Shown here piece after piece: positions 4,769 to 12,309 of a DNA stretch of 64,000 nt (position 1 is its first letter; each line of letters starts with the position of its first letter). The stretch spans positions 1-64,000 of IMG/VR virus record IMGVR_UViG_3300046001_004063; one strand, given 5' to 3'. The notes beneath the pieces were generated by a model, which was not told the origin of the DNA, made no database searches, and worked only from the letters and a program-made list of their open reading frames with translations. The DNA is from a virus. A program made the position numbers and the translations under genes.

Positions 4769-6139
4769 ATGAATAAAGATTTTCCAAACATTGCAGTAGT
4801 ACTGTACGACAATTTAAAACCTGAATGTGTTGATATTGCGCAAAACTTAATTGACTTGACTGAGTTTAAACTGTGCGGGCGATATCAGTTTAATCTATAT
4901 CAAACAAAAATACTCACGGAAGAATTAAAAAAACTGGCCGAGCAAGGGTACGAATGGGCCGGCGTAGTTGCCGCTGGAAACTTCTTGCAAAATCAGACAT
5001 TGGTAATTGACACAATCGAACATGCTAAATTAGAAAATGCACCAATGGCCTGTCACATATTGGATCGTGGCGGCTACTATCATTTACACCCACAATGGTT
5101 TGCACTTGATTTACGGGCATGGACGGCAGTTGGTCAACCTGCATTCGAAGAACAGTCTGGCCCGGTCACGTTTACCACACGTAAAACACGTCGTGACACC
5201 AATAATGCACACAATGATTATACTCCTTGGTGGGTAGCACCCGAGTCAGAAGAGTTGGTAGAATACACTAGCGATTATCAATACACCGGCATCAATGTTA
5301 TTGCTGAGTTTATCCGTGCTGGGCACCGCATAACTAATATTCCCAATGAAATCAGACAGAAGAAAAATTATTGCTATCCTGATCATGGACATGACGATAT
5401 TGTAAAACTGATTGCTGATAAAAATCACGAGCCCCAGGACGAAGCACTTTGGTGGTTTGGATTTGCTATGCGGCAAATTACCAAAAACTTGGACACTGGT
5501 TATTATGTGTTGAACACCGAAACATTGATTGATCCGCAAGAGATGAAACGTCAGCCGCTTGATTGTTTTGTTGGGGTATGTGGCGGACTCAAGCCTGCTT
5601 GTATAACTGGCAATGATAATTTTGTTGCCAACACCAGTGTGTATCTATTTGATATCAGCCGAGCGGCAATAGAGTGGCAACAGTATCTGTTGGCAGAGTG
5701 GAACGGTGATTTTGATGTGTTTGAAAGTGTCTGGCATAAATTTCAATCAGCTCATCCAGACTATGGTCCTATGTATCACAGTCATCAGTCAATCGCTGAC
5801 AACATAGATTGGTTCTTGAACAATGCCGGATTGACAAGAGCTGATTTTTGCGCAAGATGGATCAAGTATTGTGGCATGACACACACATTTGTACACCTTG
5901 ACCTTATGGACGCTGATGCCACTGCAAAAATACTAGAGATAACCAATCAATCTGCATTGGGATCCTATTTGTGGACCAGCAATGCATTTGTCATGGACTA
6001 TCTGATGTTTTTTAAAACTCGGGCTTGGGCATTGAACAAGACTCAGAGCTTTATCAACGAACTTGCTGCCAATACTGCACAACCTATTTTGTTAGAGAAT
6101 CAAGGTTCTCTTAAACACATATTACCCAATGTGCAGTAG
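4769..6139 (+). CDS. Hypothetical protein (possible glycosyltransferase-like N-terminal and MTase-like C-terminal parts)
   Basis: 456 aa ORF directly after the preceding gene; CHILDRGGYYHLHPQW; VGVCGG...LFDIS resembles a Rossmann SAM-binding strand pattern. Confidence 0.6.
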   Translation: MNKDFPNIAVVLYDNLKPECVDIAQNLIDLTEFKLCGRYQFNLYQTKILTEELKKLAEQGYEWAGVVAAGNFLQNQTLVIDTIEHAKLENAPMACHILDRGGYYHLHPQWFALDLRAWTAVGQPAFEEQSGPVTFTTRKTRRDTNNAHNDYTPWWVAPESEELVEYTSDYQYTGINVIAEFIRAGHRITNIPNEIRQKKNYCYPDHGHDDIVKLIADKNHEPQDEALWWFGFAMRQITKNLDTGYYVLNTETLIDPQEMKRQPLDCFVGVCGGLKPACITGNDNFVANTSVYLFDISRAAIEWQQYLLAEWNGDFDVFESVWHKFQSAHPDYGPMYHSHQSIADNIDWFLNNAGLTRADFCARWIKYCGMTHTFVHLDLMDADATAKILEITNQSALGSYLWTSNAFVMDYLMFFKTRAWALNKTQSFINELAANTAQPILLENQGSLKHILPNVQ

Positions 6140-6787
6140 AATGATGTCTTTTTGATCAACCAACCGATGCTGTACCCAGTTGGAACTGCAATGTACATGT
6201 GTGCGATCAAACATGCCAATTGACCCCAGCTGGTAGTTGTACACACCGTCCAACAGCCAGGTGTCCACAATAGACGGAGTTCCTGCCCAGCAATGATTGA
6301 CTTCCTGAGTCTGACTGACAGTGCTTATAACAGGAAATCGACTGTTGTCGGCAATAAATTCTCTGAAGTATTGCTGTAGGTCATCATTGGTCAAGAATGC
6401 CCGATCCCATATTACAGTTTTAAACACCCCGTTGATGTTTTCATCTAATGGAATGATTGCACTTTTGGCATAATTTAGATCTGTGGTAGGGTATACACCG
6501 TCAACATGCAGTTGGTGCGGCAAGTATTGTCGCTGATAGGCCATGTAAAAGAATGTACCGCGTGGCACGTATCTATATAAAATATCGCCCATTCGCCGAA
6601 ATGCTTCATCGCCCGGTTGCAATATGTGTCTGCGATCAATGTTTGTAATTTCCTGTCCATAGATACGCAGTGAATCTTCAACACTGTAAGGACGATCCAC
6701 TGGATCAACATCAATAAGTGCTGCCAGGTCAGATTTAAACCACACAATGTCGTCGGCAGTTAGTGCGTTTTCAAAAGTTTCAACCAT
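6122..6787 (-). CDS. Putative 2OG-Fe(II) oxygenase/cupin-fold protein
   Basis: HVD ... IIPL ... FDRTHVHCS, an HxD...H facial-triad pattern. Confidence 0.55.
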   Translation of the reverse strand: MVETFENALTADDIVWFKSDLAALIDVDPVDRPYSVEDSLRIYGQEITNIDRRHILQPGDEAFRRMGDILYRYVPRGTFFYMAYQRQYLPHQLHVDGVYPTTDLNYAKSAIIPLDENINGVFKTVIWDRAFLTNDDLQQYFREFIADNSRFPVISTVSQTQEVNHCWAGTPSIVDTWLLDGVYNYQLGSIGMFDRTHVHCSSNWVQHRLVDQKDIILLHIG

Positions 6788-7493
6788 TTTTTATCGCCTC
6801 TCGATAGCTGTTTACAACCAAGTGATTCCACTCTGGGTTACGCCATGCGCCGTGTACAATCATGTGGAATCGATCAGTATCACTGTTGTTATGTACTGCA
6901 TGCTGATAGTGGTTGTTGAACAAAAATATGCTGCCGCTATTTCTAAAAGGCACAGTGCCATGTATGTTGGTTAGTCTGCAATTATCAGGATTGTTTAGAG
7001 AAATGTTTACAGCGGCACCAGGCGTGTTGTTTACATTGTCGCTATGCGGTGCAATGTATCCTCCAGGTTCAACCAACATGTATCGCAGTCGTTGATACTG
7101 ATTGTACGGAAATACTTCTTTAAAAAATTTCACAGTAACCGGGCACTGATCTTGTATTTCAGTCCAGTTGTACTTGACTTTGTCAGGATCTAGGCCATAT
7201 GTCTGCGGAACATTAGTCATTGTAGCACTTATGCCATGTATGGCCAAACTACGCCAGCCCTTCATTCCTGCTTCTTCGCCGCGATGGAATACAAACATGT
7301 CTCGCAAGGCCTGTGCTTCTTGGTACATTTCTGCGTAGGGTGCGTCAATGCCTAGGATTTCCAACCACGGTGCTTGACTGTGTTTTAAAATCCAATCAGC
7401 CTGGAAATGCACATCGCCTTCTGGAAGTGGCAACAACTCGAATGTATTCTTATCATTGTGTTGATCTAAAAATTCTTTAATCCACTGTTCCAT
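6780..7493 (-). CDS. Aspartyl/asparaginyl beta-hydroxylase-like 2OG-Fe(II) oxygenase
   Basis: RYMLVEPGGYIAPHSD ... HAVHNNSDTDRFHMIV. Confidence 0.8.
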   Translation of the reverse strand: MEQWIKEFLDQHNDKNTFELLPLPEGDVHFQADWILKHSQAPWLEILGIDAPYAEMYQEAQALRDMFVFHRGEEAGMKGWRSLAIHGISATMTNVPQTYGLDPDKVKYNWTEIQDQCPVTVKFFKEVFPYNQYQRLRYMLVEPGGYIAPHSDNVNNTPGAAVNISLNNPDNCRLTNIHGTVPFRNSGSIFLFNNHYQHAVHNNSDTDRFHMIVHGAWRNPEWNHLVVNSYREAIKNG

Positions 7494-8544
7494 TGCTTAT
7501 TTCCTTGTTGTTTAACACTTGTCTTTCCCAGTGTTGATACTTTCTACCACAATGAGAATCACACAAGATTAATCTGCCATCTTTGTATTTTTCTATTTTC
7601 CAACGTTCTTCAATTTGATTGAACCATTCTGTTGCAGCCTCTAGACCTATTTCAAGTGCATTGTTGTTGACATGGTCTACAATGGTCTTTAGTTGAGTGT
7701 GTACTAGGTCATACCAAGGTCCATCCATAAATGTTCGGGGGAACGCACCAAGATAACAGCAAGGATACACTTCTCCATTGGCAGCAACAAAAATAGTTTC
7801 ACTGCGGTTGCTATAACAGTCTAATGTTTCTTTTTCTTCTGGCGGCAGCCGCGGAGTTGTATGGTGTTGCCATTGTATTATTTGATCAATAGTTCGTGGT
7901 CCATTACGGTCGTCGACGATGCCTAAGATATGCGTCATATTTCCTTGGCGATCAAACGCCGGTCCCCAGTCTCTGCCGTGATCAGTAAGATCAAATCTAT
8001 AAAATCCCAAAGTTTTAGCCATTTCACGACAAGCATCAATTTGATGCAGGTTGTGTCGAAATTTGATCATCTTCCACACAGCACGACTGCCCGTGGTCAT
8101 CACAGTCTCTGCATTACGAATGATATTTTGCCAATGGGTGTCTACTCTATACATAGCATGAGTGTCTTCGAGTCCGTCTAAATCAAATATTACTTCAACA
8201 TTGCATTTAGCAATACGTGTCCAAAATTCGCGATCTCTTGCACTGCCATTGGTGTTGATTGTAATTTTGGTAGAAGGATTGACGCTACGTAAATACTCAA
8301 CAATTTCCACAGCGTCTGGCGCCATTACAAAGTCGCCAAAATTACCGCAAAAATCAATGAGCCGCAATTGGCGAATAAAATCAACAGAAAATATCTGTTT
8401 GACTTGTTCCAGCGATAATGACGTTTCGGGATACCCAAAGTTGTGTGGATATCCGTTTGCGTTCCTTACACACAACGGGCATCGTGCGTTGCAAAGTGTC
8501 GTGAGTTCTAGGTGTATCTCTTTAACATTATCGATGGTGATCAT
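7477..8544 (-). CDS. Radical SAM protein with SPASM/twitch domain
   Basis: CNARCPLC (CxxxCxxC), NTNGS, C-terminal C...ANGEVYPCC...C. Confidence 0.9.
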   Translation of the reverse strand: MITIDNVKEIHLELTTLCNARCPLCVRNANGYPHNFGYPETSLSLEQVKQIFSVDFIRQLRLIDFCGNFGDFVMAPDAVEIVEYLRSVNPSTKITINTNGSARDREFWTRIAKCNVEVIFDLDGLEDTHAMYRVDTHWQNIIRNAETVMTTGSRAVWKMIKFRHNLHQIDACREMAKTLGFYRFDLTDHGRDWGPAFDRQGNMTHILGIVDDRNGPRTIDQIIQWQHHTTPRLPPEEKETLDCYSNRSETIFVAANGEVYPCCYLGAFPRTFMDGPWYDLVHTQLKTIVDHVNNNALEIGLEAATEWFNQIEERWKIEKYKDGRLILCDSHCGRKYQHWERQVLNNKEISNGTVD

Positions 8545-8552
8545 GATGTATA

Positions 8553-8650
8553 TAGCTCACTTTTGGATTCCCGGTAGCGAATCGGGCCGTCCAAGGCAGC
8601 AGCCGCCTCACACTTGAGTCAGTAACAAGTACTGGTCCTAAGGTAGTGTG
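8553..8650 (-). ncRNA. Candidate structured cis-regulatory RNA (riboswitch-like, family not identified)
   Basis: GC-rich island with nested stems CACACT/AGTGTG, CAGTA/TACTG, GGCG/TGCC, TTGGA/TCCAA, CCCG/CGGG; loop TTCGCT complementary to 3' AGTGAG (pseudoknot). Confidence 0.55.
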
Positions 8651-9498
8651 ATCAGAGGTTCATTATGATATTTAACTATTGTTTGACAAGTTACCTTTTT
8701 TATTGAATCTAAATCAAGATTTAAAAAATTATCAAAACTGATATCAGCATATTTTTCTATTAGACGAATGTTTGCCAGTTTATATGCGTGTATCACGTCA
8801 ATTAATTCATAGTTAGGAGTTATATTTGCCCAAGAGCACAGTTCTGTGTACACTTGTTTTGTATCACCAAAATATAATTCATCTACATTGAACAACTTGG
8901 TACTGTTAAACATTAAATATTCTGCGTAGACACGTTTTCTTCTGCTTTCAAGTGCATCAATATTAATTTCTTTCCACGAGTCTAATGTTGTTGACAAATG
9001 ATTTAAAAAATCGGGCACACAGCCGGCAACAGAAAATGCTTCTGCTTCGTACCAATAATAAAAATTCCTATTAATTGCTTGTTTGAAATTGTCCCAAGTA
9101 TTATTTTCTAACATTAGCGTTTTAATTCCGCTAGGAGTATTAACATTAAGTTTGAAGTATGTGGTCTTGAGTAAAAAAAGAATTGAATAATAAAAATGAT
9201 ACTTTGTCGAAACATCTGCAATAAACAAATTTGCCTGCCCTGTACGTAAAATTTCATTTAATGAAGGAGACAACTTAGGATGAACAGGTACAAATAACAA
9301 TTGATCACTGCCGTCAGAATCAATTTGCCATTGGGCATGTTCTTTGAGACTTACGGCAGCATATTTGTTATTTGGTAATTGTTTTATGTCAACTGTGGCG
9401 CACTCTTGGTGATGATTGAAAAGATAACTTAAAAACTCTCCGCCTTGCCCGCCAATGTACATTATCAACTGTAATTTGTTAGGTTGAACGCAAATCAT
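8638..9498 (-). CDS. Hypothetical protein, possible P-loop/sulfotransferase-like fold
   Basis: AT-rich ORF; N-terminal IMYIGGQGGEFL resembles the start of 46999..47868. Confidence 0.55.
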   Translation of the reverse strand: MICVQPNKLQLIMYIGGQGGEFLSYLFNHHQECATVDIKQLPNNKYAAVSLKEHAQWQIDSDGSDQLLFVPVHPKLSPSLNEILRTGQANLFIADVSTKYHFYYSILFLLKTTYFKLNVNTPSGIKTLMLENNTWDNFKQAINRNFYYWYEAEAFSVAGCVPDFLNHLSTTLDSWKEINIDALESRRKRVYAEYLMFNSTKLFNVDELYFGDTKQVYTELCSWANITPNYELIDVIHAYKLANIRLIEKYADISFDNFLNLDLDSIKKVTCQTIVKYHNEPLITLP

Positions 9499-9506
9499 CT
9501 AATACA

Positions 9507-10139
9507 TTATTTGCCAGCAACTGCCAGTGCGGCACCTTTGTTAAAACTTGGTGACCAAGGGCTATTGCCCTGCTTCAGACCTTTGCGCTTGCTCCATTCG
9601 TATCCAGCACGATGCCCGCTACAGTCTTTGGTACACTGCGATCCTAAGAATGATAGTTCGTCTAAGTGATCTTTTAAAAATGTATCAGCAAACGCCTTGC
9701 ACAGTTCTTTGATACGTGGGTTGGTTGTGGTCTTGACATGAAACTTTTTGCGTGTTTCGTCCTGTGATGGATCTGCGTAGCCTGCATACACTTTGTGTAC
9801 ACCAGAACGATTGATCAAGTCTGTGCAACTTTCGCCATGGCGATCTGGCATGTCTTTTGTGCAAGGACTCAGCGTTGTGATTATGATGCTGCCTTCAGGA
9901 ATGCTGCCAAACTGTTCCATGTAAGCATCCATTGCCGCACGTTCTGCGTGTACACGTGACCCATCTTCGGCAGGATAGTTTATGGCACTTACACAAACAT
10001 CATTGGGATCCAACACTGCGGCAGCCACCATGCCTAGATCAGTATGGTCACGTTTGGCTCGAACGATTTCACTGCAGAGATCCACTAGAATGCGATCTAG
10101 TTTGTCTAGGTTCTTGATTCTGAAGTCACTTAACAGCAT
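9507..10139 (-). CDS. Zn-dependent nucleoside/nucleotide deaminase fused to a small Cys/His C-terminal module
   Basis: HAE ... TLSPC...C deaminase motifs; after LDE, a module with CTKDCSGHRAGYEW. Confidence 0.8.
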   Translation of the reverse strand: MLLSDFRIKNLDKLDRILVDLCSEIVRAKRDHTDLGMVAAAVLDPNDVCVSAINYPAEDGSRVHAERAAMDAYMEQFGSIPEGSIIITTLSPCTKDMPDRHGESCTDLINRSGVHKVYAGYADPSQDETRKKFHVKTTTNPRIKELCKAFADTFLKDHLDELSFLGSQCTKDCSGHRAGYEWSKRKGLKQGNSPWSPSFNKGAALAVAGK

Positions 10140-10216
10140 TATACCGGTGAGTAGGGATTGCGGAAACGATCGTATCCGTCATCTTCTGGATATACTGGAT
10201 ATTCGTTTGTGTTCAT
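10139..10216 (-). CDS. 25-aa micropeptide MNTNEYPVYPEDDGYDRFRNPYSPV (not in ORF track)
   Basis: Fills the gap exactly: ATGA overlap with the upstream stop and TAATG overlap with the downstream start. Confidence 0.6.
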   Translation of the reverse strand: MNTNEYPVYPEDDGYDRFRNPYSPV

Positions 10217-12309
10217 TTTTTAGGTTGCACCGCTACAGGAACGTTTCGGTACACACGTTTTTCGGGGTCGTACACAGTCTTTAATGGGCCTGCACCGGCC
10301 AACTGTTTAAGACGTGCCATGGCCGCGTCAAACTTGTCGGCATCCATGTCGCCAACTTTTTCTTGAGATTCATTAGCAGGTGCTCTGGTGTAAGTTCCGT
10401 TTGGGTTTAGTTCCACTTTGGTTGAGCCCATGCTTCTAGATCCAACAGCCATTGACGGCGCAGTGACAACTTCGCCTTGTCCGGTTGCTTGAGCATCTGA
10501 GTTCCATTTATATTGCTTGCCCTTGTACGTTAGTATCCGAGTATCAACATCGTACTGTGCCTGAGGTTTTGCAAGATTGATTGAAGACGTTGACTGAGTT
10601 GGTGCAGTATCAGTTGCCTGTTGAGTTGCAATCGGCTTGCCTGTTAAACGATTGATGCCAGGATCATCTCCAGGCATGACTCTAGCTTGTGCTCCGCCTG
10701 CGCCCAGTGCCATTGCACCTGCCAATGCCGCGCCACCTAATTTTTCTTTCCAGCCTTCCTCTAATTCAGGTTCTTGATTGGATTCAATGTAGTCAGCCGC
10801 TGTGTCAAGATAGTCAGCAGCCAGGGTAACTTTCATCTGCACCCACTCTGGCATGTTTTCGTTGTCATCCAACAGGCCGTCAAGTCTACGGGCCGCACGT
10901 ACAATGGTGTTCATTTGATCTCTAGCTTGGTCGCCTTCGTAATCGTATTCGCCAGAGTCAGCGTGGTCAACCGAGTATCCGTCGCTGTCTACATCGCCTT
11001 CTGCTAGGCCTTCGCCTAACGCATCTATCTCTGCTTGCATTGCAGCCGCAAGTTTAGGGTTCTTTGCCTTCATTGCATCAATCTTTGCCTGCATTGCTGT
11101 TTTCACTTGTGCAGGATCACCATTTGCTATTTTTACATTGCCGGGCGCAGTAGATGTTTGCGTAATGTTATTTGTAACGTTAGATGGATTTTGCCTTACG
11201 CCTTGTCGGACCAGTTCGGCATTCTGTGCATCTCGTTCAGCGGCAGCGGCTTGTGATTTTTGGCGGTTTGCTTGATACTCTACTTCACGGGCTGCCTCTT
11301 GTTTGTCCAACTCTTTTTGCCATTCAGGTGTAGGTTTACCGGTAACTCCGTCATACTTAGCACCCTTACCTGTTGCAGGATCATATGGTTTATCAAGCGT
11401 AGATGGTGCCTTCGTTGTAGGTTGCTGTTGTGCAGGTTGTGTTGCGGCTGGTTGTGCGGCAGTGGCCGCCGGCCGTTGTTGTGCAGTTTGTGCGGCGGCA
11501 GCTTGGTTAGCTTGTTTAGCTTGTTTAATCTGGTCAGGTTTCATGCCTGGAAATTTAGTTAGGTCTAAGGTACCACCTTTTGCCACTGCACCGGGTGCGG
11601 CTTTGGCAGCAACTTGCGGCTTGCCAGTGTTCGGATCATATCCTTGTGGAGCGGCTGCGATTCTTGCTTGTGTAGCCGCATCAGGGACTACTGGTGCCGG
11701 AGCGGCCGGAGTAGGTGCTGCCGCCGATTGTCCTGGCTTGGTAAACATACTTTTGGCTTTGTTGACCATGTTGCCTACAAAGCCTTCGTCCATGTCATCA
11801 TCTGCTACACCTTGTTGGTCAGCAGTTTTACGACGAGCAACATCGCTCAAGTGTGTGACCACGCCACGTGGATCTTTGGGCTGACCTTGCTTGTTTTTTT
11901 CGACTGGGTGCCATTCTGAGTCGTCTTTCCAACTCACAACTTTACCTTGTTTGTCCTTGACTTCTGTGTGGCCTTCTGCTACACCTTGTTGCTTATCGTT
12001 GGGGTTGGTAGTCAACATGAACTCTTTGTCTTTGTTGAACAGCTTGGCCTGCATTATACGTGCGGCTTTGTTTGCGGCTGCCTTATCTTGGAATGCATAA
12101 GGATTGCCTGATTTATCTTTGATCAGTTTGCCATTGAGGCGAATATACCAAGTATTTGATTGTTGATCAAGGCCGTGATTCTCATCATTGGCACCACCAT
12201 CTGCACGATATGCTTGTGAGTCTTTGCCAAAGCCGCTGGTGCTATTGGCAACGTCACGTTCGTATGCGTCACGTGGGTCTCTCATTTCATATAGGTCATT
12301 TAGGTTCAT
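10213..12309 (-). CDS. Multi-module putative internal virion polyprotein
   Basis: MNLNDLYE leader; modules separated by QQGVAEG, QQGVAD/MDEG, GLAEG, LEEG and ANES; low-complexity Ala/Pro/Gln linkers. Confidence 0.7.
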   Translation of the reverse strand: MNLNDLYEMRDPRDAYERDVANSTSGFGKDSQAYRADGGANDENHGLDQQSNTWYIRLNGKLIKDKSGNPYAFQDKAAANKAARIMQAKLFNKDKEFMLTTNPNDKQQGVAEGHTEVKDKQGKVVSWKDDSEWHPVEKNKQGQPKDPRGVVTHLSDVARRKTADQQGVADDDMDEGFVGNMVNKAKSMFTKPGQSAAAPTPAAPAPVVPDAATQARIAAAPQGYDPNTGKPQVAAKAAPGAVAKGGTLDLTKFPGMKPDQIKQAKQANQAAAAQTAQQRPAATAAQPAATQPAQQQPTTKAPSTLDKPYDPATGKGAKYDGVTGKPTPEWQKELDKQEAAREVEYQANRQKSQAAAAERDAQNAELVRQGVRQNPSNVTNNITQTSTAPGNVKIANGDPAQVKTAMQAKIDAMKAKNPKLAAAMQAEIDALGEGLAEGDVDSDGYSVDHADSGEYDYEGDQARDQMNTIVRAARRLDGLLDDNENMPEWVQMKVTLAADYLDTAADYIESNQEPELEEGWKEKLGGAALAGAMALGAGGAQARVMPGDDPGINRLTGKPIATQQATDTAPTQSTSSINLAKPQAQYDVDTRILTYKGKQYKWNSDAQATGQGEVVTAPSMAVGSRSMGSTKVELNPNGTYTRAPANESQEKVGDMDADKFDAAMARLKQLAGAGPLKTVYDPEKRVYRNVPVAVQPKK

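What the first reader, a model, noticed from the sequence alone, without database searches (positions are those of the whole stretch)
8545..8652. Riboswitch-like pseudoknotted RNA upstream of radical SAM/oxygenase operon
Seen: a ~100-nt GC-rich element in AT-rich surroundings. On the minus strand, CACACT...AGTGTG encloses CCTTAGGAC and a CAGTA/TACTG hairpin, followed by GGCGGCTGCTGCC and TTGGA[CCCG-ATTCGCTAC-CGGG]TCCAA. The loop TTCGCT can pair with AGTGAG about 12 nt before the ATG of the radical SAM gene. I cannot assign it to a known family. Inference: a ligand- or protein-responsive translational switch, or an independent ncRNA/ribozyme marking the end of the polyprotein operon.
Basis: partly seen in the sequence, partly recalled or inferred. 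Interest (0 to 1): 0.7.

Follow-up and report, generated by a model that had tools for sequence, protein, structure and literature searches.

The report
Phage pseudoknot RNA mirroring 23S rRNA
The flagged gap holds a real, about 100-base folded RNA found once per genome in a large family of uncultured lake jumbo phages; it is not a switch for the radical SAM gene, and its two unchanging exposed loops are exact antisense to a universally conserved stretch of bacterial 23S ribosomal RNA, so it may act on the host ribosome.

Summary
Related phages confirm them by strong covariation: 93% of cells paired and 20 of 24 pairs changed on both sides. The element is one member of a large, single-copy RNA family of uncultured T4-like jumbo phages. 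I found it in at least 176 distinct contexts, and it matches no Rfam 15 family and no paper I could find. Earlier agents of this scan met the same family on other genomes.

It is not tied to the radical SAM gene. The downstream genes differ between genomes and usually have their own promoter. The proposed pairing of loop with Shine-Dalgarno fails. The 3' tail instead pairs with the loop of the GGCGG hairpin, forming an H-type pseudoknot backed by many compensatory changes.

The RNA starts a median of 2 nt after the stop codon of a co-directional upstream gene and ends just before the next promoter.

Two unpaired boxes stay constant while everything else varies: CCUUAGGACC(G) and UUCGCUAC. They are antisense to abutting 23S rRNA segments, about nt 1920-1937 (helix 69/70).

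Best reading, confidence about 0.4: a loop-presenting RNA that pairs with host 23S rRNA. Expression, ends and target are untested.

The parts
8552..8653 (-). Whole RNA element as matched by the covariance model (5' leader GAUC, helices P1-P4, 3' tail plus 3 nt)
   Evidence: CM R1 gives 98.1 bits, E = 5e-25, and this is the only hit in the window. It is also the only copy in the 75-kb record.
8645..8650 (-). P1 5' strand, CACACU
   Evidence: Pairs with 8609-8614. All five modelled P1 pairs change on both sides across homologues.
8609..8614 (-). P1 3' strand, AGUGUG
8634..8646 (-). Box A: CUACCUUAGGACC here; the family-invariant core is CUUAGGAC at 8635-8642. It is unpaired (P1/P2 junction) and is 13 nt of exact antisense to 23S GGUCCUAAGGUAG. 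The TAG stop of the upstream ORF (8638-8640) lies inside it.
   Evidence: The core is invariant in every homologue, including sets whose search pattern did not require it. Complementarity to E. coli 23S was found by script on L099. In the subfamily without P2 the box sits in a 12-nt hairpin loop.
8620..8634 (-). P2 hairpin, CAGUA-CUUGU-UACUG. It is variable and is absent from one subfamily.
   Evidence: It covaries: CAGUA/UACUG, CGGUA/UACCG and CGCA/UGCG. It is missing in L112-type members.
8594..8608 (-). P3 hairpin: stem AGGC/GCCU with the 7-nt loop GGCUGCU (8598-8604)
   Evidence: The stem covaries: AGGC/GCCU, CGCC/GGCG, GCCC/GGGC and GUCC/GGAC. Helix 3 is 99.7% paired.
8555..8563 (-). 3' tail AAAGUGAGC. 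AGC (8555-8557) pairs with GCU of the P3 loop (8601-8603), forming an H-type pseudoknot with P4 in its third loop.
   Evidence: Compensatory loop/tail sets, P3 loop first: GCUA/UAGC, GCCA/UGGC, ACCA/UGGU, GGU/ACC (many), ACU/AGU, GCCCCAU/AUGGGGC, GAACCC/GGGUUC and GAAGCCGG/CCGGUUUC. Loop-tail complementarity scores 297.5 against 271.5 +/- 4.8 when tails are shuffled, with 0 of 1000 shuffles as high.
8564..8593 (-). P4: UGGA/UCCA (P4a), internal loop CGG/AA, CCCG/CGGG (P4b)
   Evidence: All eight modelled P4 pairs change on both sides. P4a variants are CAGGA/UCCUG, CGGGA/UCCCG and CGGGA/UCUCG.
8574..8582 (-). Box B: the P4 loop AUUCGCUAC. UUCGCUAC(C) is exact antisense to 23S (G)GUAGCGAA, which abuts the box A target.
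   Evidence: Invariant except for two members (ACUCGCUAC and AGUCGCUAC) in the synteny-selected set. 23S match.
8662..8689 (-). Sigma-70-like site TTGTCA-16-CATAAT inside the 3' end of the upstream ORF. It would start transcription a few nt before P1. Weak evidence only.
   Evidence: It matches 10 of 12 consensus positions, but the region holds no more such sites than its shuffles do (8 found against a mean of 8.0). It is weaker in the closest relative L006.
7477..8544 (-). Radical SAM/SPASM gene. It is cargo inserted directly after the RNA in this lineage and is not a conserved partner of the RNA.
   Evidence: Pfam PF04055 and PF13186. Most family members lack it at this place. In L009 a 55%-identical homologue lies 1.8 kb from the RNA.

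Best explanation
SHOWN. Window 8552-8653 (minus strand) encodes one member of a large, undescribed family of structured RNAs about 80-105 nt long. The family occurs once per genome in T4-like jumbo phages of about 345 kb from lakes.

The fold runs as follows. P1 encloses an unpaired box A and an optional hairpin P2. P1 abuts hairpin P3, which abuts hairpin P4. The 3' tail pairs back to the P3 loop, making an H-type pseudoknot. Every helix and the pseudoknot vary by compensatory changes.

Two unpaired boxes stay fixed: box A, CCUUAGGACC(G), and box B, (A)UUCGCUAC in the P4 loop. The RNA begins a median of 2 nt after the stop codon of a co-directional upstream gene and ends just before the next gene's promoter.

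INFERRED. The RNA is made as the 3' end of the upstream transcript, or from a promoter buried in that gene's end. It presents the two boxes in loops for base pairing with host 23S rRNA. Box A is exact antisense to about nt 1920-1930 (the 3' strand of helix 69 and the following junction). Box B is antisense to the abutting nt 1930-1937.

This segment is paired or buried in the mature 50S subunit (my own knowledge of 23S structure). The likely substrate is therefore nascent or unfolded 23S rRNA. The likely effect is interference with, or marking of, large-subunit assembly or function, alone or as a guide for a protein.

In this window the radical SAM/hydroxylase genes are cargo that happens to be inserted behind the RNA.
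For: Family and copy number:
- There are at least 176 distinct genomic contexts.
- The CM hits 64 of 79 loci chosen only by DNA-polymerase homology, always on the polymerase strand.
- There is one hit in each of five large records, including a complete 346,856-bp genome with terminal repeats.

Structure and strand:
- Covariation is strong.
- Paired columns hold 42 G.U cells against 13 A.C cells, which fixes the sense strand as the window's minus strand.
- The pseudoknot is supported.

Boxes:
- The boxes are constant in scaffolds whose P3, pseudoknot and P4 sequences are completely different, such as L199, L235, L218 and L175.
- A typed 32-mer containing the target was confirmed as E. coli 23S rRNA, present in 5426 of 5426 genomes.
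- A script found box A matching 11-14 nt and box B 8-9 nt of abutting 23S positions.
- By my arithmetic, an 11-mer and an abutting 8-mer both matching 4.5 kb of rRNA is expected about 2e-7 times. With only the invariant cores (8 + 7 nt) the figure is about 6e-5.
- Predicted duplexes are -19 and -10 kcal/mol, and cofolding with the 23S fragment gains about 18 kcal/mol.

No rival target in the phage:
- There is no contiguous sense copy in three phage records.
- Box complements occur in the window no more often than chance.
Against: - No expression data exist, so the RNA's ends and abundance are unknown.
- A single 11-nt complementarity to 23S arises in about 5% of shuffles of the RNA. The argument therefore rests on adjacency and on both boxes being the invariant unpaired parts.
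- The 23S target does not vary, so target-side covariation cannot be tested.
- The two boxes are in permuted order relative to a simple antisense.
- A 9-nt loop cannot pair fully without strain.
- The target is paired or buried in mature ribosomes.
- It is unclear why a phage would benefit from this.
- Other rRNA complementarities of the window copy are not conserved across the family. These are P3 to 16S 519-528 and the tail to 23S near 1100. They show how easily such matches arise.
- The three closest cultured phages lack the RNA.
Confidence: 0.4

Rival explanations
1. Protein-binding scaffold. The invariant boxes, the conserved P3 loop and the A-rich linker are recognition sites for a phage or host protein, for example an RNA chaperone, a nuclease or the neighbouring 86-aa nucleic-acid-binding protein. 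On this reading the likeness to antisense 23S has no pairing role.
For: The loop sequences are invariant on stems that covary freely, which is also the signature of protein operators. An 86-aa gene (PHROG 639, 'transcriptional regulator') and DNA polymerase are the ancestral downstream neighbours.
Against: This leaves unexplained why two separate boxes match abutting 23S segments (my estimate is at most 6e-5). No candidate RNA-binding protein was identified. The 86-aa protein shows only weak matches.
Confidence: 0.2
2. Cis-acting boundary element of the upstream transcription unit. It would act as a terminator or attenuator, a block to 3' exonucleases or a processing site, in the place where T4-type phages carry the stem-loop of PeSL cassettes. 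It could also anchor recombination that shuffles cargo genes on both sides.
For: - The RNA starts a median of 2 nt after a co-directional stop codon (132 of 159 contexts).
- It is followed at once by a sigma-70-like promoter (52 of 175) or a TAAATA motif (44 of 175).
- In 22 of 175 contexts a U-run follows the pseudoknot strand directly. In divergent members the pseudoknot helix is G+C-rich and followed by U5-7, as in L235, L199 and L218.
- The neighbouring genes are highly variable.
- The PeSL layout is stop codon, stem-loop with early promoter, SD, start codon (PMC2839356).
Against: - Most members, including the window copy, have no U-tract. The window region has 0 terminator-like sites.
- A simple hairpin would be enough for this job.
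- This does not explain the invariant loops or the pseudoknot.
- The element is single copy, unlike PeSLs.
- This role could coexist with the best explanation rather than replace it.
Confidence: 0.2
3. Riboswitch or translational switch controlling the radical SAM/hydroxylase operon.
For: - The conserved junction and loop bases, covarying stems and a pseudoknot resemble an aptamer.
- In this window the tail lies 11 nt before the ATG with no obvious promoter between.
- Two of the immediately downstream cargo genes in different lineages are radical SAM enzymes.
Against: - The downstream genes are unrelated across the family and usually have their own promoter.
- Two members lie antisense to both neighbours.
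- The proposed pairing of loop with Shine-Dalgarno is not compensated, whereas P3 loop-tail pairing is.
- There is no Rfam riboswitch match even at E <= 10.
Confidence: 0.04
4. A new small self-cleaving ribozyme that processes the transcript between the upstream gene and the next unit.
For: The element is compact and pseudoknotted, with invariant unpaired nucleotides, and it lies at a transcript boundary in phages, where small ribozymes are common (my own knowledge).
Against: No match to twister, pistol, hatchet, hammerhead or HDV-like models at E <= 10. The helix order does not fit the HDV or hammerhead fold (my reading). The 23S complementarity would have to be coincidence.
Confidence: 0.05
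5. A short peptide gene, for example a precursor peptide for the radical SAM/SPASM enzyme.
For: A GTG-started 27-codon frame runs through the element in the window (my reading). Radical SAM/SPASM enzymes often follow precursor peptides.
Against: The frame is broken by a 2-nt indel in the closest relative L006 and by a 1-nt indel in the CGCCGG variants. Substitutions are compensatory in stems rather than synonymous. Most members have no radical SAM gene nearby.
Confidence: 0.01

Closest known systems
Loop-presenting antisense RNAs (CopA/CopT of plasmid R1, RNA I/RNA II of ColE1) and seed-bearing 3'-UTR-derived sRNAs
   Same: It is a small structured RNA whose conserved, exposed loop sequences are complementary to another RNA. 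It lies at the 3' end of an mRNA, as 3'-UTR-derived sRNAs do (my own knowledge).
   Different: The apparent target is ribosomal RNA rather than an mRNA or a replication primer. There are two boxes on one pseudoknotted scaffold. No dependence on Hfq or a terminator tail is evident. Pairing has not been shown.
Group II intron exon-binding sites (EBS2/EBS1 pairing with IBS2/IBS1)
   Same: Two separate loops, in the same 5'-to-3' order as their targets, read two abutting segments of a continuous target strand. This is the same 'permuted' topology as box A and box B on 23S (my own knowledge).
   Different: There are no intron domains, no reverse transcriptase and no Rfam intron match. The element is only about 100 nt long.
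PeSL (promoter-early stem-loop) cassettes of T4-type phages (PMC2839356)
   Same: Same genomic niche: the stop codon of the upstream gene, a structured element, a strong sigma-70-like early promoter, SD and start codon. The niche lies in a region of gene shuffling.
   Different: PeSLs are repeated many times per genome and carry a simple G+C-rich stem-loop. This element is single copy, has four helices plus a pseudoknot, and carries invariant loops.
TURBS of caliciviruses and influenza B; snoRNA/sRNA guides of eukaryotes and archaea
   Same: These are viral or cellular RNA segments that work through complementarity to conserved rRNA (my own knowledge).
   Different: TURBS pairs with 18S rRNA on the small subunit, from inside an mRNA upstream of a restart site. 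Guide RNAs carry C/D or H/ACA boxes. None of these features is present here, and nothing comparable is known in bacteria or phages.

Membership tests
Any Rfam 15 family (riboswitches, ribozymes, sRNAs, tRNA-like) | Score at or above the family's gathering threshold | tested here: not met
   There were 0 matches in the 64-kb window at gathering thresholds. At E <= 10 on 8450-8750 only two chance-level hits appeared, SNORD107 and Ms_IGR-8, at 12-15 bits against gathering scores of 44-50.
Riboswitch | Conserved aptamer placed upstream of a functionally coherent set of genes | tested here: not met
   The downstream genes differ between genomes. In 96 of 175 contexts a promoter-like motif lies between the RNA and the next gene.
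Riboswitch | Expression platform with alternative pairing that hides the SD or forms a terminator | tested here: not met
   The L4-AGUGAG pairing is not compensated. The tail pairs with the P3 loop in all contexts. U-runs occur in only 22 of 175 contexts.
Riboswitch | Specific ligand binding | not testable with these tools
   Needs in-line probing or ITC.
H-type pseudoknot | Hairpin-loop bases pair with a downstream single strand, supported by covariation | tested here: met
   P3 loop positions 2-5 pair with the tail. At least 8 different compensatory sequence sets were seen. The complementarity score exceeds all 1000 tail shuffles.
PeSL cassette | Many copies per genome, concentrated in hyperplastic regions | tested here: not met
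   There is one CM hit per genome, including a complete 347-kb genome.
PeSL cassette | Stem-loop joined to a sigma-70-like early promoter between a stop codon and the next SD/start | tested here: inconclusive
   The layout is present in 52 of 175 contexts. It is absent in the window, and the structure is far more complex than a PeSL stem-loop.
Intrinsic terminator | G+C-rich hairpin followed directly by a U-tract | tested here: not met
   The region 7400-10300 has 0 terminator-like sites. UAUAUAC follows the tail in the window.
Trans-acting antisense RNA against 23S rRNA (proposed, no precedent) | Conserved unpaired segments complementary to the target | tested here: met
   Box A matches 11-14 nt and box B 8-9 nt of abutting 23S positions, verified on an E. 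coli rrn locus.
Trans-acting antisense RNA against 23S rRNA (proposed, no precedent) | The RNA is expressed and pairs with the target in cells | not testable with these tools
   Needs infected-cell RNA-seq, crosslinking or binding assays.
tRNA / tmRNA | Cloverleaf or tRNA-like domain detected by ARAGORN | tested here: not met
   ARAGORN finds 0 genes in the window.
Precursor peptide of a radical SAM/SPASM (RiPP) system | A conserved open reading frame | tested here: not met
   The frame is broken by indels between close relatives.

The most novel reading that the evidence does not exclude
A family of jumbo phages makes a dedicated pseudoknotted RNA that base-pairs through two loops with the helix 69/70 region of the host's 23S rRNA. 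This would be the first natural anti-rRNA or rRNA-guide RNA known from a phage or a bacterium. It could be used to block or re-program large-subunit assembly, or to direct a phage enzyme to that site.
Probability: 0.3. Interest if true: 0.9.

Novelty: categorically new. Interest (0 to 1): 0.78.

Why it matters
Phage-encoded structured RNAs of unknown function are rare, and none is known to address ribosomal RNA directly. It is single copy and strongly constrained. Its only unchanging parts mirror one of the most conserved and functionally central stretches of 23S rRNA, the region of intersubunit bridge B2a.

If the pairing is real, it opens a new route by which viruses take over translation. 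It would also offer a natural antisense design against a site that synthetic oligomers already target. Because E. coli 23S carries the target sequence exactly, the idea can be tested directly in a laboratory strain.

If the pairing is not real, the family is still a new, well-defined RNA motif with a validated pseudoknot, ready for Rfam and for biochemical study.

Tried and rejected
- **Known RNA families and genes.** The Rfam gathering and E-value scans and ARAGORN found nothing.
- **Single-sequence folding.** Neither strand is better than its shuffles.
- **GenBank phages.** blastn with 3.2 kb of context and with the RNA itself found no real match.
- **Closest cultured phages.** The CM and a two-box pattern were run on the three closest cultured phages by polymerase: Sinorhizobium phage Phosso, Vibrio phage 2.275.O and Agrobacterium phage Atu_ph07. 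The result was no member, only a 10-bit chance hit.
- **Sequencing runs.** No RNA holder was listed; 20 lake-water DNA runs hold the stretch.
- **Peptide reading.** Rejected because the frame is not conserved.
- **Ribosome bypass, as in T4 gene 60.** The CCU-UAG take-off and CCU landing codons exist only in the window lineage, so this was rejected on my reading.
Rejected in favour of P3 loop-tail pairing.
- **Other rRNA complementarities.** The window copy's P3 matches 16S 519-528 and 349-357, and its tail plus UAU matches 23S near 1100. The matching bases vary across the family without regard to the rRNA, so I treat these as chance.
- **Sense copies or mRNA targets in the phage.** None was found.
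- **Promoter scan.** One good sigma-70-like site lies upstream, but the region has no more such sites than its shuffles.
- **Chance hit.** L093 from the metagenome pattern scan is not matched by the CM.
- **Literature.** Three searches found no description of the family.

Full report
**What is there**

The window comes from a 75-kb IMG/VR virus record that is about 22% complete. Its relatives are phage contigs of 342-347 kb, one of them complete with terminal repeats.

On the minus strand, the 93-nt gap lies between the stop of a 286-aa ORF with no family (8638-9498) and the ATG of a radical SAM/SPASM gene (7477-8544). An Asp/Arg beta-hydroxylase-family gene follows. It has 53% G+C against about 40% around it.

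Folding the single sequence gives nothing special on either strand: z = +0.55 and 0.00. Rfam 15 has no match at gathering thresholds or at E <= 10. ARAGORN finds nothing.

**Homologues**

Loci found through the radical SAM protein first showed the element 100% conserved where the flanks diverge. A second lineage has a different upstream gene and a compensated hairpin, CAGUA/UACUG changed to CGGUA/UACCG.

Pattern scans of IMG/VR and of JGI metagenomes then gave dozens of variants in many contexts.

To escape the bias of sequence patterns, I fetched 80 loci by DNA-polymerase homology alone. At least 587 relatives exist, and the 80 kept share 84% or more identity. A covariance model hit 64 of 79 of them, always upstream of the polymerase and on its strand.

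All 100 loci that I tested with the model matched it.

The element occurs once per genome.

**Structure**

| Measure (synteny-selected set) | Value |
|---|---|
| Cells forming a standard pair | 93.0% |
| Same, with 3' letters shuffled | 65% |
| Same, with partners slid | at most 42% |
| Pairs changed on both sides | 20 of 24 |
| Covariation score (shuffled) | 0.59 (0.16) |

One search gives the same picture on the first, narrower set. Paired columns hold 42 G.U cells against 13 A.C cells, so the RNA is the window's minus strand.

P1, P3 and P4 abut without linkers. P2 is optional; where it is missing, box A sits in a 12-nt hairpin loop.

The 3' tail pairs with positions 2-5 of the 7-nt P3 loop. 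Matching changes, P3 loop first, include:
- GCUA/UAGC
- GCCA/UGGC
- ACCA/UGGU
- GGU/ACC, in many members
- ACU/AGU
- GCUC/GAGC

Some members have wholly different sequences that still match: GCCCCAU/AUGGGGC, GAACCC/GGGUUC and GAAGCCGG/CCGGUUUC. Loop-tail complementarity exceeds every shuffle of tails among sequences, 0 of 2000 and 0 of 1000.

**Context**

In 132 of 159 evaluable contexts, a co-directional ORF of at least 100 codons ends within a few nt of P1. The median is 2 nt and the interquartile range is 0-5. That ORF belongs to several unrelated families.

| What follows the tail (175 evaluable contexts; first three rows can overlap) | Contexts |
|---|---|
| Sigma-70-like promoter TTGACx-N16-18-TAxAxT | 52 |
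| TAAATA late-type motif | 44 |
| U-run | 22 |
| Only an ATG within about 20 nt | 32 |
| None of these | 33 |

The commonest arrangement is RNA, early promoter, 86-aa PHROG 639 protein, then T4-type DNA polymerase.

In the window, a 4.7-kb block of cargo separates the RNA from the 87-aa gene and the polymerase. The block holds the radical SAM gene, the hydroxylase, a 221-aa gene and two genes on the other strand.

Two members lie antisense to their neighbours, behind a TAAATA motif.

This niche resembles that of PeSL cassettes of T4-type phages (PMC2839356). The element differs in being single copy and far more elaborate.

**Why it is not a switch for the radical SAM operon**

- The downstream genes are not coherent, and promoters intervene.
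- The tail is part of the pseudoknot everywhere.
- The frame through the element is not conserved, which also removes a precursor-peptide reading.

**The constant boxes and 23S rRNA**

After I had the structure, earlier notes of this scan pointed out that the family's loops are antisense to 23S helix 69-70. I tested this independently.

On the fetched rrn locus a script found the matches below. The annotated 23S starts 6 nt late, so I added 6 to reach standard numbering.

| Box | RNA sequence | 23S target | Approx. standard position |
|---|---|---|---|
| A | CCUUAGGACC(G); 13 nt in the window, 14 in L049 | (C)GGUCCUAAGG | 1920-1930 |
| B | UUCGCUAC(C) | (G)GUAGCGAA | 1930-1937 |

A lone 11-mer match occurs in about 5% of shuffles. 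The weight therefore lies on three things: the two targets abut, both boxes are the family's unpaired invariants, and both persist in scaffolds that share nothing else. By my arithmetic the chance expectation is about 2e-7, or about 6e-5 using only the 8-nt and 7-nt cores.

Other rRNA complementarities of the window copy are not conserved, and I treat them as chance.

The phage holds no sense copy of the target and shows no excess of box targets. Predicted duplex energies are favourable.

The boxes are in the same order as their targets. This is the topology of group II intron EBS2/EBS1 rather than of a linear antisense.

**What remains open**

No RNA-seq run holds the sequence, so its expression and ends are unknown. 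The closest cultured phages lack the element. No paper describes it.

The mechanism is therefore inferred. I give about 0.4 to pairing with 23S rRNA, most plausibly the nascent or unfolded form. I give about 0.2 each to a protein-binding scaffold and to a purely cis-acting boundary element, and little to a riboswitch, a ribozyme or a peptide.

**Verdict**

This is a new RNA family, already met by this scan on other genomes, with a validated pseudoknot and a striking but untested link to the ribosome.

Noticed in passing
window 6122-8544 (-); L009:3001-4023: The radical SAM/SPASM gene, the Asp/Arg beta-hydroxylase-family gene and a 221-aa gene form a cargo block inserted directly behind the RNA. 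No precursor peptide is evident. Homologues at 35-55% identity occur in other viral contigs, mostly without the RNA.
   Followed up: partly
window 8638-9498 (-) versus L002:2263-2895: The 286-aa ORF of unknown family lies between the dCMP deaminase-like gene and the RNA. It is absent from a sister lineage, where the deaminase gene ends 2 nt before the RNA. The window copy's TAG stop lies inside box A.
   Followed up: partly
loci such as L025, L042 and L134, directly after the RNA: A near-consensus sigma-70 promoter (TTGACATCTCC...GTTATACT or GTTATAAT) followed by UUUAGGAG precedes the 86-aa gene and the DNA polymerase. It is highly conserved at the DNA level. It points to a host that uses sigma-70-type promoters and SD sequences.
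   Followed up: partly
L297 and L298 (NZ_JBBAKG010000058.1 and NZ_JBBAKG010000001.1): Two different family members lie on two contigs (39 kb and 183 kb) of one 'Haliscomenobacter sp.' MAG. These are probably phage contigs binned with a bacterial genome rather than evidence of the host.
   Followed up: partly
window 8594-8608 and 8552-8561 (-): The window copy's P3 is also complementary to 16S 519-528 (CAGCAGCCGC) and 349-357. Its tail plus UAU is complementary to 23S AUAGCUCACU near 1100. Neither match is conserved across the family.
   Followed up: yes
L040:2239-2336 and L056:2181-2277: In these two contexts the RNA points away from, or against, its neighbouring ORFs. A TAAATA late-promoter-like motif lies 5-14 nt upstream, which suggests the RNA can be a transcription unit of its own.
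   Followed up: partly
window 8162-8617 (+): A 151-aa GTG-started ORF runs antisense to the radical SAM gene and into the RNA. It is most likely spurious.
   Followed up: no
upstream genes in L134, L150, L153, L176 and others: Many different-sized upstream proteins (about 375 to 1194 aa) share one C-terminal coding motif just before the RNA...GGTGCTCAACGTCGTAGAGAACA...TAA. This fits the modular 'cargo' proteins noted by first-stage readers on this genome.
   Followed up: no
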